Shown: piece after piece, positions 40,847-43,276 of the stretch | How the letters are laid out: each line of letters starts with the position of its first letter | Numbering within the stretch: the stretch's first letter is position 1 | Sequence record: MT764208.1 | Direction: 5' to 3' (one strand) | Length of the DNA stretch: 64,000 bases | Source of the DNA: Escherichia phage JEP8 | Position numbers and translations under genes: made by a program | The notes under the pieces: generated by a model | Databases searched by the model: none | Told to the model about the DNA's origin: nothing | What the model saw: the letters and a program-made list of their open reading frames with translations, nothing else

Positions 40847-41437
40847 TTATTTTCTAAAAACAGGGTGCATAGCTTTAATACCTTCCACCCGCTGACGATC
40901 CGCCGCCTGAATTGCTGGGCGAGGAACGATCAGTTGACCATCACGTTCAATGCTCATTGTTTTAAAGGGAAGAATTGCAGTACACACCAGAGATTCATGC
41001 ATATCATCGGTGTATGTTAACTCAAGTTCCCCCAATTGTGAACACCAACAACCATAAAAGTTAAAGGTGCAAACAATGTTACGGCGTTCATTGTCCATCA
41101 TGTGGACTTGAACGGCTTCCGGCATTGAATCCTTCCACGCTGTGGAGTTACCGTTATTGTAGTCTACTATAGAAAGCATCCATGTGTAAAGGTTTAGATA
41201 GCTTTCCAAATGCTCATCGACAATAAACCGGACTACCAACGGGTCAAACTCCACATGACTAGACGGATAATCAGCAACCGCCAAACCATATTGACCAGCA
41301 ACTTGCTTAGTCGGTGGAATGGTTATAGCAGGAAGTGTAACACCTTGAGCATTTAAAGTAAAGCCTTTTGTTAGCTGTCCATCTGGAATATTGATCTGCC
41401 AGTTACTAGGGTTAGCATAGTTAAAGAGATTAGACAT
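40847..41437 (-). CDS. 3: Tail completion/sheath stabiliser protein gp3 (by synteny)
   Basis: 196 aa between gene 1 and gp2, the T4 gp3 position. Confidence 0.55.
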   Translation of the reverse strand: MSNLFNYANPSNWQINIPDGQLTKGFTLNAQGVTLPAITIPPTKQVAGQYGLAVADYPSSHVEFDPLVVRFIVDEHLESYLNLYTWMLSIVDYNNGNSTAWKDSMPEAVQVHMMDNERRNIVCTFNFYGCWCSQLGELELTYTDDMHESLVCTAILPFKTMSIERDGQLIVPRPAIQAADRQRVEGIKAMHPVFRK

Positions 41438-41626
41438 TACTGATTCCTCAAATGAAAATATTTATTAACAATTGTCGCTTTGCGACGTGCCGTAGGCACT
41501 GACTAATTTTTAACCGAAACAAATTTTTATTATTCTAAAGATCTTTCTTCGTTTTGGTTATGTTTTAACCAATAACTATATTTTTATACAGTAATAAATA
41601 AAACGGGTACTATACGAGGACTTCTT

Positions 41627-41881
41627 ATGACAGAAGACATTTTGTTAAAACTCTATGATCGTTTGGATAACGAATTAGCAACATTGCGGGGTGAAGTTCT
41701 CTATTTGTCTAAATGCAATACAGATCTGCTTAAGCAGATTGCAGAAAGGGATGATCAAATAAAATCCCTTTCAGGTGCATTACGTGATCGCGACAAGGCA
41801 TTAGAGATTTTACAGCGTGTTACCAATAAGGAAGAATTAAAAGACTTCTTACATGGTTATGCTCATGCCATCGATCTATAA
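41627..41881 (+). CDS. Small coiled-coil protein on the opposite strand between gp3 and gp2
   Basis: 84 aa; SD GAGGA 6 nt before ATG; near-late-promoter AATAAATA about 30 nt upstream; ends at a bidirectional terminator. Confidence 0.5.
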   Translation: MTEDILLKLYDRLDNELATLRGEVLYLSKCNTDLLKQIAERDDQIKSLSGALRDRDKALEILQRVTNKEELKDFLHGYAHAIDL

Positions 41882-41907
41882 TAAAAAAGCCCGTCATTGA
41901 CGGGCTT
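41882..41907. terminator. Bidirectional terminator between convergent ORF 41627-41881 and gp2
   Basis: Palindrome gcccgtca-t-tgacgggc flanked by A-run (plus) and T-rich sequence. Confidence 0.55.
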
Positions 41908-41911
41908 AATC

Positions 41912-42733
41912 TTATGCATCCTTCCAAACTTTCCTTGCGTCGTATTTCTTGCCTTTTGACATAAACTGATATGTAGGCATATAGATAATATTGCTCCAGT
42001 CTTTCGGGCTAATCTCAACAAGTTTTGTTTTAATGTGTCCCGGTAGATATGCTTTGATCATATGGTCACTACCACGCATACCTTTTACATCGCTCCATTT
42101 GATTTTTAAGCGTGTTTTATTGCTCAAGGTAGGAGTAGATGCATATTGCTTTAAAAGTGCCTCTAAAAACTGCTGACGGGCTTTAGGAGTTACATAGTGT
42201 AAGTTAAGACCCAACATTACAGTATTACCCGCCTTTGTCTTAGAATCACCCAGACAAATGATCAGCGGGAAAACATCCCAATATGGCAAAGTGTCTTTAT
42301 ACTTCGCATCATACATAAAGGTATAGATTCGCCCTACTTGCGGTTTTACAATCTGGTGTCCCTTTATTCCCGCTTTTATTGTTTTAGTAAACCACTCCTG
42401 TGATTTTTCTTTAGGGCGACTCTTTGATACAGCACGCATAGACGCACGAAAATCATTAATCATCATCATTGCGCGTTGCTGCTTATTGAGACCCTTTGCG
42501 CCTTTCCCTTTTAGTTTTTCAACTTCTATTGCTGTTTTAATTTCGCTGGCATAACGAGACATACTTTTAGTGAAAGTCGCATAGGCTATTCCCTTAGAAT
42601 CTGCAAATGCTTTAGCTGTCATGCCTTTGGCTTTTGCTTTCGCAAATTCTACACCCAATTCGACCCACTGTTTAGACTTTCGTTTTTGGGGAGACGGCTT
42701 TTCGTCTTCGGTGATTATTTCAAATACGCTCAT
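41912..42733 (-). CDS. 2: DNA end protector protein gp2
   Basis: 273 aa (T4 gp2 about 274 aa), basic; position between gp3 and gp4. Confidence 0.7.
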   Translation of the reverse strand: MSVFEIITEDEKPSPQKRKSKQWVELGVEFAKAKAKGMTAKAFADSKGIAYATFTKSMSRYASEIKTAIEVEKLKGKGAKGLNKQQRAMMMINDFRASMRAVSKSRPKEKSQEWFTKTIKAGIKGHQIVKPQVGRIYTFMYDAKYKDTLPYWDVFPLIICLGDSKTKAGNTVMLGLNLHYVTPKARQQFLEALLKQYASTPTLSNKTRLKIKWSDVKGMRGSDHMIKAYLPGHIKTKLVEISPKDWSNIIYMPTYQFMSKGKKYDARKVWKDA

Positions 42734-42744
42734 AATATTATCCT

Positions 42745-43221
42745 CTATTTGTTAAGCCCTTTAAAGCCAAACACTTTCTTTAATGCATGTTCGGTTATGA
42801 TCTTAAACTCCATGTTATGCTTTTGGCACAAATCAACCGCAGCTTTCCACTTTTCCGTGTTTACAGTATATGTGTAACACTCTTGCATGTATCTTTGCTT
42901 AGTCTTAGTGGTTATTCTTTTTGGCCTTTCCGGTGGCCGTGTCTCTTTTGCCGGTTTAACTTCCCACAAGAACTCTTTACCATCTACAAATTTCACCCAA
43001 AAATCCATATGATACTTTCTGGATCGTTTATCTGCGCTAGACCAGTAAGGTATAATCACACACTCAGAGTTCCATTTAGACACGCTAGGACTACGGTCCA
43101 AAAATTTCATTATGTGCAATTCCCAGCTTGATCTATAAGTGATTTTATGCAAGTTGTTTCCTTTGTACTTCTCAGGATTTTCTGGCTTGAACTTGCCCTT
43201 ATAAGTGTTAGATCCTCCCAT
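42745..43221 (-). CDS. 4: Head completion protein gp4
   Basis: 158 aa; MGGSNTYKGKFKPENPEKYKGNN...ITYRSSWEL...KPAKETRPPE resembles T4 gp4 as recalled. Confidence 0.8.
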   Translation of the reverse strand: MGGSNTYKGKFKPENPEKYKGNNLHKITYRSSWELHIMKFLDRSPSVSKWNSECVIIPYWSSADKRSRKYHMDFWVKFVDGKEFLWEVKPAKETRPPERPKRITTKTKQRYMQECYTYTVNTEKWKAAVDLCQKHNMEFKIITEHALKKVFGFKGLNK

Positions 43222-43236
43222 TTTAGCACCCTTTAT

Positions 43237-43244
43237 TATAAATA
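43237..43244 (+). promoter_or_regulatory. T4-type late promoter TATAAATA upstream of gp53
   Basis: Exact TATAAATA about 33 nt upstream of the gp53 ATG, followed by CATAATACTATT. Confidence 0.6.
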
Positions 43245-43276
43245 CATAATACTATTTATCAATTGAGGGTGCTAAA

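What the first reader, a model, noticed from the sequence alone, without database searches (positions are those of the whole stretch)
41438..41911. Opposite-strand coiled-coil mini-gene between gp3 and gp2
An 84-aa plus-strand ORF with a good SD lies between two minus-strand late genes that are adjacent in T4. It ends at a palindromic bidirectional terminator shared with gp2 and is preceded by a 190-bp AT-rich region with short palindromes (gtcgc-tttg-cgac, gtgcc-gta-ggcac). This is a likely moron-type insertion.
Basis: seen in the sequence. Interest (0 to 1): 0.45.

Follow-up and report, generated by a model that had tools for sequence, protein, structure and literature searches.

The report
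Small late coiled-coil gene, RB49-like phages
The flagged stretch holds a real but already annotated 84-residue gene of unknown function (RB49ORF130w) that RB49-like phages keep on the opposite strand between two virion-completion genes and apparently switch on late in infection; the gene itself is ordinary, and the DNA spacer in front of it contains a repeated, hairpin-bearing element that is the more curious feature.

Summary
Window 41627-41881 (+) is an 84-aa ORF with a GAGGA ribosome-binding site. It lies between gp3 (tail completion) and gp2 (DNA end protector) of a Krischvirus (RB49/GEC-3S-like) genome and ends at a strong hairpin shared with gp2. It is RB49ORF130w (phrog_17832), annotated as hypothetical in all 58 sequenced Krischviruses.

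It is a genuine gene. dN/dS is about 0.1 against metagenomic relatives of 44-73% identity that keep the same position. All four lineages carry a T4-type late-promoter box (nTAAATA) 19-41 nt upstream, as gp3, gp4 and gp53 do. The product is an acidic 9.7-kDa leucine-zipper-like coiled coil with a conserved LRDRDKA core and a C-terminal FLxGYAHA motif. It matches no known family, gp57A included.

"Moron-type insertion" is partly right. T2 and CC31 have nothing at this junction, and RB43-like phages hold an unrelated opposite-strand late gene there. However, this gene is old, fixed, close to its neighbours in composition and wired into the late programme.

The AT-rich spacer contains a roughly 110-bp dispersed repeat (four copies per genome) and twin hairpins supported by compensatory changes. 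Its function is unknown, and an origin-like role is a low-probability speculation.

The parts
40847..41437 (-). gp3 (tail completion / tail tube terminator), the left neighbour, transcribed away from the ORF
   Evidence: PF06841 and phrog_45. Annotated as gene 3 in RB49 and GEC-3S.
41459..41466 (-). Late-promoter box AATAAATA for gp3, 22 nt before its ATG
   Evidence: The same box lies before gp3 in L007. Position -13 is A or T in RB49 late promoters (PMC1524935).
41474..41499 (.). Twin 5-bp GC-rich hairpins with 3-nt loops (GTCGC-TTT-GCGAC and GTGCC-GTA-GGCAC)
   Evidence: Read directly. They are conserved as structure, not sequence, in L007, L010 and two other RB49 copies: 96% of cells paired and 6 of 10 pairs with compensatory changes.
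41465..41578 (.). Dispersed intergenic repeat, about 110 bp with four copies per Krischvirus genome. It includes the twin hairpins, an AT-rich stretch, AAAGATCTTT and the hairpin TTGGTTA-tgttt-TAACCAA (41554-41572).
   Evidence: Four places per record. The RB49 copies lie at the gp3/ORF130w spacer, the gp35-gp36 spacer, and twice in the ORF164c-165c gap.
41593..41600 (+). Late-promoter box AATAAATA for the ORF, 27 nt before its ATG
   Evidence: The equivalent boxes are TATAAATA in L007 and L010 and GCTAAATA in L016. It is not among the 17 RB49 late promoters predicted earlier.
41616..41620 (+). Shine-Dalgarno GAGGA, 6 nt before the ATG
41627..41881 (+). The 84-aa gene (RB49ORF130w family, phrog_17832). 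The product is an acidic (pI 5.1) 9.7-kDa coiled coil with a short C-terminal helix.
   Evidence: dN/dS is 0.09-0.15. Structure. Heptads and pI.
41761..41764 (+). A-run inside the ORF where +1 and +2 A frameshift alleles occur in some metagenomic relatives
   Evidence: P0006 and P0007.
41887..41907 (.). Hairpin terminator between the convergent ORF and gp2. The canonical U-run is on the minus strand only.
   Evidence: Annotated on both strands in GEC-3S. Predicted on the minus strand in RB49 by Nolan et al..
41912..42733 (-). gp2 (DNA end protector), the right neighbour, convergent with the ORF
   Evidence: phrog_429. PF26869 on the homologs. Annotation.

Best explanation
The ORF is a genuine accessory gene specific to the RB49-like lineage. 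It forms its own small late transcription unit on the opposite strand, at the boundary between the gp4-gp2 transcript and gp3.

Inferred mechanism: late in infection, gp55-RNA polymerase starts at the AATAAATA box (41593-41600). The short mRNA is translated from the GAGGA site. Transcription is stopped, or at least limited, by the hairpin shared with the convergent gp2 transcript.

The product is a soluble, acidic protein of 9.7 kDa. Its first 64 residues have a leucine-zipper pattern: Leu at most d positions, Ile/Val/Leu at most a positions and a buried Asn at one a position. This pattern is typical of a parallel dimer. The invariant LRDRDKA(L/V)E(I/V)L core and the C-terminal FLxGYAHA motif are the likely partner-binding surfaces.

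I commit to this reading: it is a non-enzymatic late helper (adaptor or chaperone) in virion completion or assembly, and it is dispensable in the short term. What is shown is that it is a real gene, with the conservation, position, promoter-box pattern and fold class described. Late timing, dimerisation and the morphogenetic role are inferred.
For: Real gene:
- dN/dS is 0.09-0.15 against L007 and L010, with synonymous sites near saturation.
- Its identity to the L007 homolog is 67%. In the same genome pair gp3 is 74.5%, gp2 77%, gp1 54% and gp57A 38%.
- It is present in 58 of 58 Krischvirus records, and 52 are identical at protein level.
- A 44%-identical homolog (P0008) lies next to gp2 in a 168-kb contig.

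Late unit:
- WATAAATA occurs only 8 times in the 64-kb window, and 5 of these lie 22-33 nt before a start codon, including this one. ATAAATA is depleted, with 14 matches against about 24 expected.
- In the window, L007 and L016 the box precedes gp3, gp4, gp53 and the ORF homolog, but not the internal operon genes gp2, gp5 and gp1.
- RB49 late promoters have A or T at -13, and CTAAATA is a known variant (PMC1524935).
- No sigma-70-like site of at least 9/12 matches faces the ORF within the spacer downstream of the hairpins.

Protein:
- AlphaFold gives a helix over 2-64 and another over 68-83, at pLDDT 90.5.
- There is one continuous heptad register, pI 5.1, and no hydrophobic segment.
- The invariant columns are listed.

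Context:
- The gene is embedded among completion genes: 57A, 1, 3, 2, 4, 53 and 5.

Dispensability:
- Frameshift alleles exist in otherwise near-identical genomes.
Against: - No transcript, proteome or mutant data exist for this gene. I found no mention of it in the searchable literature.
- The late-promoter call rests on an 8-nt motif, and an earlier HMM-based prediction did not list it.
- There is no detectable homology to any characterised chaperone or structural protein.
- Guilt by association is weak in a genome where accessory genes land at operon boundaries. The unrelated gene at the same site in RB43-like phages suggests the site is permissive rather than functionally specific.
- The frameshift alleles may be homopolymer sequencing errors, so they say little either way.
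Confidence: 0.55

Rival explanations
1. It is a mobile moron or PeSL-type cargo gene whose product acts on the host or on competing phages (anti-defence, superinfection exclusion or similar) rather than in assembly. It was carried into the gp2/gp3 boundary by recombination between repeated intergenic cassettes.
For: - The junction is empty in T2 and CC31.
- The same junction holds an unrelated opposite-strand gene in Lw1/RB43-like phages and three plus-strand genes in L016.
- The spacer carries a dispersed repeat of the kind proposed to mediate modular shuffling in RB49/Phi1 (PMC2839356).
- A homing-endonuclease-like gene inserts next door in about a third of Krischviruses.
- The family is very narrow.
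- Frameshift alleles are tolerated.
Against: - The gene is fixed in 58 of 58 genomes and held at the same place across deep divergence.
- Its composition is not clearly foreign.
- It has a late promoter rather than an early sigma-70-type promoter, whereas host-takeover genes of T4-like phages are typically early (established knowledge).
- No PADLOC or anti-defence family matches.
- The defining PeSL features were tested and not met (see the membership test).
Confidence: 0.25
2. The spacer repeat is a replication-origin module of MotA-less T4-like phages, and the ORF is an origin-adjacent small gene comparable in placement to T4 repEA/repEB. Its transcript or product would take part in initiation.
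For: - The repeat copies lie in the gene 3/2 region, just downstream of gene 24, and between genes 35 and 36 in RB49.
- In Lw1 the analogous spacer repeat lies upstream of gp3 and directly upstream of uvsY.
- T4 oriE, oriF (uvsY) and oriG (gene 34) sit at strand switches inside late-gene regions. Their minimal origins are about 100 bp, comprising a promoter and an A+T-rich unwinding element. oriE has iterons and uses a non-middle promoter (PMC3016281).
- L016 has iteron-like repeats in the same spacer.
- RB49 lacks MotA-type middle promoters (my recollection of Desplats et al. 2002, not checked here).
Against: - The agreement is positional only, within 0-6 kb.
- No promoter of at least 9/12 sigma-70 matches lies in the repeat.
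- The ORF looks late, whereas origin transcripts are early or middle.
- The similarity between the RB49 and Lw1 elements is limited to about 20 nt and was not found by nhmmer.
- No replication data are available.
Confidence: 0.1
3. It is a diverged paralogue of the tail-fibre chaperone gp57A, which is encoded three genes away, and assists trimerisation of fibre proteins.
For: - The two are similar in size, acidity and coiled-coil character, and both are late.
- They share a short motif in their most conserved helices: LKDRExVL in Krischvirus-type gp57A and LRDRDKAL here.
Against: - The profile-profile comparison gives a probability of 2.9% over 18 columns.
- PF17594 matches gp57A but not the ORF.
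- From my memory of the T4 gp57A sequence, the motif is absent there. I did not check this.
Confidence: 0.07
4. The ORF is a chance reading frame. The segment acts only as non-coding spacer, or as an antisense RNA that regulates gp2 or gp3.
For: - The ORF is short.
- Transcription converges with gp2.
- The terminator is weak on the plus strand, so read-through would give RNA antisense to gp2.
Against: - dN/dS is about 0.1 at near-saturated dS.
- The ORF is intact, with a ribosome-binding site, in four lineages down to 44% identity.
- The heptad pattern and C-terminal motif are conserved at the protein level.
Confidence: 0.03

Closest known systems
RB49ORF130w / phi1p130 / phrog_17832 (annotated hypothetical protein of Krischvirus)
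   Same: It is the same gene. It is 100% identical at protein level to RB49, GEC-3S and 50 other records, with a full-length match to phrog_17832 at E = 2e-57.
   Different: Nothing differs. The family has no assigned function, and I found no published mention of it.
Morons of tailed phages (Hendrix/Juhala concept, as cited in PMC2839356)
   Same: It is a single extra gene with its own promoter and terminator, inserted between two genes that are adjacent in relatives, and it lies on the opposite strand.
   Different: The phage is virulent, not temperate. The promoter is the phage's own late type. The composition is not clearly foreign. The gene is old and fixed rather than patchy.
PeSL (promoter-early stem-loop) + ORFan cassettes of RB49/Phi1 (Arbiol et al. 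2010; Comeau et al. 2014)
   Same: The phage group is the same. Both are repeated intergenic composites of stem-loops, an AT-rich stretch, a promoter and a ribosome-binding site that sit in front of genes of unknown function. The authors note a few such elements in the virion module.
   Different: - PeSLs have a near-consensus TTGACA-N17-TATAAT promoter and G(n)-loop-C(n) stems.
- Here the promoter boxes are late-type.
- The stems are twin 5-bp hairpins.
- No sigma-70 site of at least 9/12 matches lies in the repeat.
- A late-promoter version is not described in either paper.
T4 gp57A tail-fibre assembly chaperone (PF17594)
   Same: Both are small, acidic, late coiled-coil proteins encoded in the same gene neighbourhood. 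This is a functional analogy only.
   Different: There is no detectable homology.
T4 oriE region with repEA/repEB (as summarised in PMC3016281)
   Same: Both involve small genes and repeats lodged in the late-gene block near gene 5, at a strand switch. L016 has iteron-like repeats in the same spacer.
   Different: No replication evidence exists here. The ORF appears late, whereas oriE depends on an early promoter. There is no sequence relationship.

Membership tests
T4-type late gene (gp55-dependent) | A TATAAATA-type box (A or T allowed at -13 in RB49) a short distance upstream of the start codon | tested here: met
   AATAAATA lies at 41593-41600, 27 nt before the ATG. Equivalent boxes are present in L007, L010 and L016. 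The consensus comes from PMC1524935.
T4-type late gene (gp55-dependent) | The transcript appears only after DNA replication starts and depends on gp55, gp33 and gp45 | not testable with these tools
   No transcriptome of an RB49-like phage was found.
Moron | An autonomous promoter-ORF-terminator unit inserted between genes that are adjacent in related phages | tested here: met
   gp2 and gp3 are adjacent in T2 and CC31. The ORF has its own late box and hairpin.
Moron | Nucleotide composition distinct from the surrounding genome | tested here: not met
   G+C is 36.9% and GC3 31.8%, against a window G+C of 40.3% and neighbouring GC3 values of 30-45%.
Moron | Patchy presence among close relatives, indicating recent gain | tested here: not met
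   It is present in 58 of 58 Krischvirus records and at the same site in diverged metagenomic relatives.
PeSL cassette (Arbiol 2010) | A near-consensus sigma-70 promoter (TTGACA-N17-TATAAT) | tested here: not met
   The scan finds no site of at least 9/12 matches in 41470-41626 facing the ORF. The best candidate read by eye, TTGGTT-N17-TATATT, matches 8/12.
PeSL cassette (Arbiol 2010) | A G(n)-loop-C(n) stem-loop adjacent to or overlapping the promoter | tested here: not met
   The stems are GTCGC/GCGAC and GTGCC/GGCAC, about 95 nt from the ORF's promoter box.
PeSL cassette (Arbiol 2010) | Repeated at several intergenic sites of the genome, upstream of ORFans | tested here: inconclusive
   There are four copies per genome, but only this copy precedes an ORF. 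The others lie between gp35 and gp36 and in an empty 413-bp gap.
PeSL cassette (Arbiol 2010) | Mediates recombination and mini-circle formation | not testable with these tools
   This needs inverse PCR on infected cells.
gp57A (PF17594) | A sequence or profile match to the family | tested here: not met
   Pfam gives no hit for the ORF, while gp57A itself matches. The hhalign probability is 2.9%.
Parallel dimeric leucine zipper | An unbroken heptad repeat with Leu at d, beta-branched or aliphatic residues at a, and a buried polar Asn at an a position | tested here: met
   The a positions are Y10, L17, V24, N31, I38, I45, L52 and L59. The d positions are L6, L13, L20, L27, L34, R41, L48, R55 and L62. 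The long helix has pLDDT of 97-98. The oligomeric state itself was not testable.
Bidirectional intrinsic terminator | A GC-rich hairpin flanked by an A-run upstream and a U-run downstream, so that both strands see hairpin plus U-tract | tested here: inconclusive
   The hairpin is strong on both strands. The U-run is present only on the minus strand in the window, on both strands in L007, and on the plus strand in L016.
T4 oriF/oriG-type origin | An element of about 100 bp comprising a promoter and a downstream A+T-rich unwinding element, active early | tested here: inconclusive
   It is A+T-rich (29% G+C) and lies at a strand switch, but no convincing early promoter is present. Activity cannot be tested. 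The definition comes from PMC3016281.

The most novel reading that the evidence does not exclude
The dispersed repeat of about 110 bp, with its covarying twin hairpins, marks the replication origins of the MotA-less 'pseudo-T-even' phages. RB49-like genomes carry it in the gp3/ORF spacer, just downstream of gene 24, and between genes 35 and 36. RB43-like genomes carry an analogous repeat, in the same orientation, upstream of gp3 and directly upstream of uvsY. These sites would be positional equivalents of T4 oriE, oriF and oriG. ORF130w would then be an origin-adjacent opposite-strand gene, comparable in placement to T4 repEA/repEB.
Probability: 0.1. Interest if true: 0.7.

Novelty: new member of a known kind. 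Interest (0 to 1): 0.3.

Why it matters
The gene adds little by itself. It is one more small accessory gene of unknown function in a T4-like phage, and it has been annotated since 2003.

What this analysis adds:
- It is clearly real and under purifying selection.
- It is older than the genus.

These points make it a tractable candidate for an unrecognised assembly or virion-completion helper in phages used for therapy (Phi1, JSE, GEC-3S).

The repeat in the spacer would matter more if it proved functional. It would either extend the "regulatory cassette" idea of Arbiol and Comeau to late genes, or point to the still unmapped origins of RB49- and RB43-like phages.

Tried and rejected
- **Family searches.** Homology searches of the protein against Pfam, PHROGs, NCBIfam, PADLOC and PDB sequences found only its own family or generic coiled-coil noise. 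The profile search of 1.84 billion representatives gave the same result.
- **Fold searches.** Searches against BFVD and PDB matched only the family's own entry. This is expected for a single long helix.
- **gp57A homology.** Rejected at hhalign probability 2.9%.
- **Neighbouring genes elsewhere.** The 261-aa gene at the same junction in Lw1 is unrelated to the ORF. The 204-aa gene beside the L016 homolog is unrelated to that Lw1 gene.
- **Rfam.** Nothing near any gathering score.
- **RNA folding of the spacer.** z is about -3 on both strands, so it does not identify a strand.
- **Within-genus conservation of the spacer.** The spacer has 0-3 differences, against 9-13% synonymous divergence in gp3. 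This looked like constraint at first. The divergence profile then showed equally uniform stretches elsewhere and strong mosaicism, so I dropped the argument.
- **Wider scans.** IMG/VR and JGI metagenome scans added only close relatives.
- **Literature.** No proteomic or transcriptomic data for RB49-like phages and no mention of the gene. The repEA/repEB paper could not be read.
- **Operon-boundary idea for T2/CC31.** I looked for a terminator plus late box in their uninterrupted gp2-gp3 gap but could not read a clear late box, so I make no claim.
- **Palindrome inside the ORF.** The 16-bp perfect palindrome at 41724-41739 is at chance frequency and is not conserved.
Full report
**What the window is.**

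The 1.9-kb segment around the finding is 99.3% identical to Enterobacteria phage GEC-3S and about 98.5% identical to RB49. All 58 matching phage records belong to Krischvirus.

The gene order on the minus strand is 57B, 57A, 1 (dNMP kinase), 3, then the plus-strand ORF, then 2 and 4. Genes 53 and 5 follow on the plus strand.

**The observation.**

- The 84-aa ORF lies at 41627-41881.
- A GAGGA ribosome-binding site sits 6 nt upstream of the ATG.
- The spacer is 189 bp at 29% G+C.
- Two adjacent 5-bp palindromes lie at 41474-41499.
- A strong hairpin at 41887-41907 lies between the ORF and the convergent gp2.

One correction applies. In this window the uninterrupted U-run follows the hairpin only on gp2's strand. 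In relatives the U-run sits on both sides (L007) or on the ORF's side (L016). The hairpin is therefore the conserved feature, and its efficiency as a terminator on the ORF's strand is uncertain.

**It is an already annotated gene, and a real one.**

The ORF is RB49ORF130w, also phi1p130 and BN201_0131, and is called "hypothetical protein" in every record. It matches phrog_17832 over its full length.

- All 58 Krischvirus records contain it, and 52 are identical at protein level.
- Outside isolates the family is very small. The 5.8-billion-protein search and the exhaustive profile search of 1.84 billion representatives found only a handful of members. The IMG/VR and JGI scans added only close relatives.
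- The informative relatives are P0004 (72-73%), P0005 (67%) and P0008 (44%).
- P0005 lies between gp3 and gp2 in a metagenomic phage whose gp3, gp2, gp4, gp53 and gp5 are 74-85% identical to the window's, while gp1 is 54% and gp57A 38%.
- P0008 lies next to gp2 in a 168-kb contig, as the last of three plus-strand genes between gp3 and gp2.
- Against L007 and L010, dN/dS is 0.09-0.15, with synonymous sites close to saturation.

The "chance ORF" reading is excluded.

**Expression class.**

According to Nolan et al., RB49-type late promoters are TATAAATA with A or T at position -13, and CTAAATA is a known variant in Aeh1 (PMC1524935).

- WATAAATA occurs only 8 times in the 64-kb window. Five of these lie 22-33 nt upstream of a start codon: gp3, gp53, two other genes and this ORF, whose box is 27 nt upstream.
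- The 7-mer ATAAATA is depleted relative to shuffles, with 14 matches against 23.6 expected.
- In the window, L007 and L016 the box precedes gp3, gp4, gp53 and the ORF homolog, but not the internal operon genes gp2, gp5 and gp1.
- L010 has TATAAATA 29 nt before the conserved start.
- In L016 the homolog follows a terminator hairpin and has its own GCTAAATA box 19 nt upstream.
- No sigma-70-like site of at least 9/12 matches faces the ORF inside the spacer.

I therefore infer a stand-alone late transcription unit. This promoter is not among the 17 RB49 late promoters predicted by Nolan et al.. That paper states that novel ORFs appear to be expressed with early genes, so a late novel ORF is mildly unusual. 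No transcriptome or proteome of an RB49-like phage was found.

**The protein.**

- AlphaFold2 predicts one long helix over residues 2-64 and a short helix over residues 68-83, at mean pLDDT 90.5.
- A single heptad register runs through the first 66 residues. Leu occupies seven of the nine d positions. Aliphatic or aromatic residues (Tyr, Leu, Val, Ile) occupy seven of the nine a positions, and Asn31 occupies another.
- By the established rules for leucine zippers, this pattern points to a parallel dimer. That step is an inference.
- The protein is acidic (pI 5.1), hydrophilic, and has no signal peptide or membrane segment.
- The invariant parts across 44-100% identity are L-Y near the N-terminus, G22, Y26, the block LRDRDKA(L/V)E(I/V)L, and the C-terminal FLxGYAHA.
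- Searches of Pfam, NCBIfam, PADLOC and PDB sequences, and fold searches of BFVD and PDB, gave only coiled-coil noise or the family itself.
- gp57A, the similar-sized coiled-coil chaperone encoded three genes away, is not a detectable homolog. The hhalign probability is 2.9%, and only the short LKDRE/LRDRD motif is shared.

**Is it a moron?**

Structurally, yes. T2 (Tequatrovirus) and CC31 (Karamvirus) have gp2 and gp3 adjacent, with gaps of 81-106 bp. The ORF is thus a lineage-specific insertion with its own promoter and terminator, on the opposite strand.

The junction is a recurrent landing site:
- RB43-like phages (Lw1) carry an unrelated 261-aa opposite-strand gene there (phrog_7322). It has its own late box and a hairpin shared with gp2.
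- L016 carries three genes there.
- About a third of Krischviruses have a homing-endonuclease-like gene (CapR, treble-clef and T5orf172 domains) inserted between gp2's stop codon and the hairpin.

However, the gene is not recent. It is fixed in the genus and older than it, its composition is not clearly foreign, and it uses the phage's own late promoter. It fits "an old, domesticated insertion" better than "moron" in the usual sense.

Three frameshift alleles exist: FL20, and the +1 and +2 A alleles at the A-run 41761-41764, one of which was seen in at least three samples. They suggest the gene can be lost without immediate lethality, unless they are homopolymer sequencing errors.

**The spacer is more than the ORF's upstream region.**

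The 189-bp spacer matches four places in every Krischvirus genome. In RB49 these are:
- the gp3/ORF130w spacer;
- the gp35-gp36 spacer, between gp35's terminator and gp36's TATAAATA box;
- two tandem partial copies in an unannotated 413-bp gap between ORF164c and ORF165c, just downstream of gene 24.

Only the first copy has an ORF attached. The unit contains the twin hairpins, an AT-rich stretch, the palindrome AAAGATCTTT and the hairpin TTGGTTA-N5-TAACCAA.

The spacers of L007 and L010 are diverged to synonymous saturation, yet they keep the same layout. Across five copies the twin hairpins keep pairing through compensatory changes: GTCGC/GCGAC, TCTGC/GCAGA and ATTGC/GCAAT for the first, and GTGCC/GGCAC, ATGCC/GGCAT and ACTCC/GGAGT for the second. 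In total, 96% of cells are paired and 6 of 10 pairs change on both sides, against 22-40% paired when the partners are slid.

Three caveats apply. There are only five sequences, they were picked by eye, and one was padded by a base.

Two mismatches become G-U pairs only on the strand of gp3 and gp36. These are the A-C pair in the gp35-36 copy and the TTGATCA/TAATCAA variant. They hint weakly that the structure matters in RNA of that strand. A possible long-range helix (AACCGAAAC with GTTTTGGTT) favours the other strand. The strand therefore remains undecided.

Read on gp3's strand, the order is AT-rich region, stem-loops, late box, ribosome-binding site, gene. This is the architecture of the PeSL cassettes described for RB49 and Phi1 (PMC2839356), with a late box in place of the sigma-70 promoter. 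The defining PeSL features are a consensus sigma-70 promoter and G(n)-loop-C(n) stems. They are not met, so I do not file it as a PeSL. Neither PeSL paper describes a late version or this locus.

My preferred reading of the hairpins is an attenuator or insulator in front of late promoters. This is unproven.

**A speculative lead.**

Lw1's gp3-upstream spacer has the same orientation and contains GTTGGTTAAAAACCATACCAAAAAC. The RB49 core is TTGGTTAAAACATAACCAAAAC. The Lw1 spacer also has GC-rich inverted repeats before gp3's late box. It is repeated once more, directly upstream of uvsY.

The RB49 and Lw1 copies thus lie near the gene 3/2/4/5 cluster, near gene 24/uvsY and beside gene 34/35. According to the T4 replication review (PMC3016281):
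- T4 oriF is ori(uvsY) and oriG is ori(34), and repEA lies near oriE.
- oriE, oriF and oriG sit at strand switches within late regions.
- The minimal oriF and oriG are about 100 bp, comprising a promoter and an A+T-rich unwinding element.
- oriE carries iterons and depends on a non-middle promoter.

L016 has about eight iteron-like repeats, (A/T)AGCGATTAC, in the same spacer, upstream of a 64-aa HTH-like gene.

This is positional resemblance only, and no convincing early promoter is present. I rate the origin reading at about 0.1.

**Verdict.**

The gene is an already annotated, narrowly distributed, conserved late accessory gene encoding a leucine-zipper-like protein. Its most likely role is as a non-enzymatic helper in virion completion.

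My probabilities are about 0.85 that it is a real late gene and about 0.3 for the morphogenetic role. Interest is low to moderate. The dispersed hairpin-bearing repeat is the part most worth an experiment.

Noticed in passing
window 41465-41578; RB49 loci L006 24997-25109 and L005 12537-12617 and 12685-12765: A dispersed intergenic repeat of about 110 bp has four copies per Krischvirus genome: the gp3/ORF spacer, the gp35-gp36 spacer, and two tandem copies downstream of gene 24. It carries twin hairpins supported by compensatory changes. It has no Rfam match and no attached ORF at three of the four copies.
   Followed up: partly
L011 1126-2157 (Phi1 ORF130.1); L012 1102-2244 (JSE 00134); L023 906-1934: In roughly a third of Krischviruses a homing-endonuclease-like gene of 342-380 aa is inserted between gp2's stop codon and the shared hairpin. 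It has CapR, treble-clef zinc-finger and T5orf172 domains. In the JSE group gp2 is only 81-88% identical, as expected if flanking sequence was co-converted.
   Followed up: partly
window 42727-43227 (gp4, head completion): gp4 differs from the RB49 allele at 26% of nucleotides (123 of 477), while the flanking genes differ by about 1-3%. It is a sharply bounded mosaic patch.
   Followed up: no
L014 2372-3427 (Lw1); L026 31685-31825: RB43-like phages hold an unrelated 261-aa opposite-strand gene (phrog_7322) at the same gp2/gp3 junction. It has its own late box and a shared hairpin. The gp3-upstream spacer is repeated between gene 24 and uvsY and contains a core resembling the RB49 repeat.
   Followed up: partly
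L016 4540-5070: In the 168-kb metagenomic relative, the 560-bp spacer next to gp3 carries about eight iteron-like direct repeats, (A/T)AGCGATTAC, and several small GC hairpins. A TTGACA-type promoter and a 64-aa HTH-like gene follow. The layout is reminiscent of an operator array or an iteron origin.
   Followed up: no
window 41761-41764; L022 (FL20); L023 and L025: Frameshift alleles of the ORF exist. FL20 has an AT-to-G change with loss of 1 nt beside a G-run. The P0007 and P0006 alleles have +1 and +2 A at an A-run, and P0006 was seen in at least three samples of one sequencing project. They are either real loss-of-function alleles or homopolymer errors.
   Followed up: partly
window 43237-43260: The divergent late-promoter boxes of gp4 (GATAAATA, minus strand) and gp53 (TATAAATA, plus strand) lie back to back within 24 bp. 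The gp3 and ORF boxes, by contrast, are separated by 127 bp filled by the repeat.
   Followed up: no
window 41724-41739: A perfect 16-bp palindrome, ATCTGCTTAAGCAGAT, lies inside the ORF and encodes DLLKQI. About one such palindrome is expected by chance in 64 kb, and it is not conserved in L007.
   Followed up: yes
L010 1-40 compared with L005 12470-12520: The left end of the short contig L010 (ATCGCGTAGCGATAAGCGAACGCAGTGAGC) resembles the sequence upstream of RB49 repeat copy c (TCCGCGTAGCGGAAGCGAGCACAGCGAGC). This suggests tandem copies of the element upstream of the ORF in that relative.
   Followed up: no
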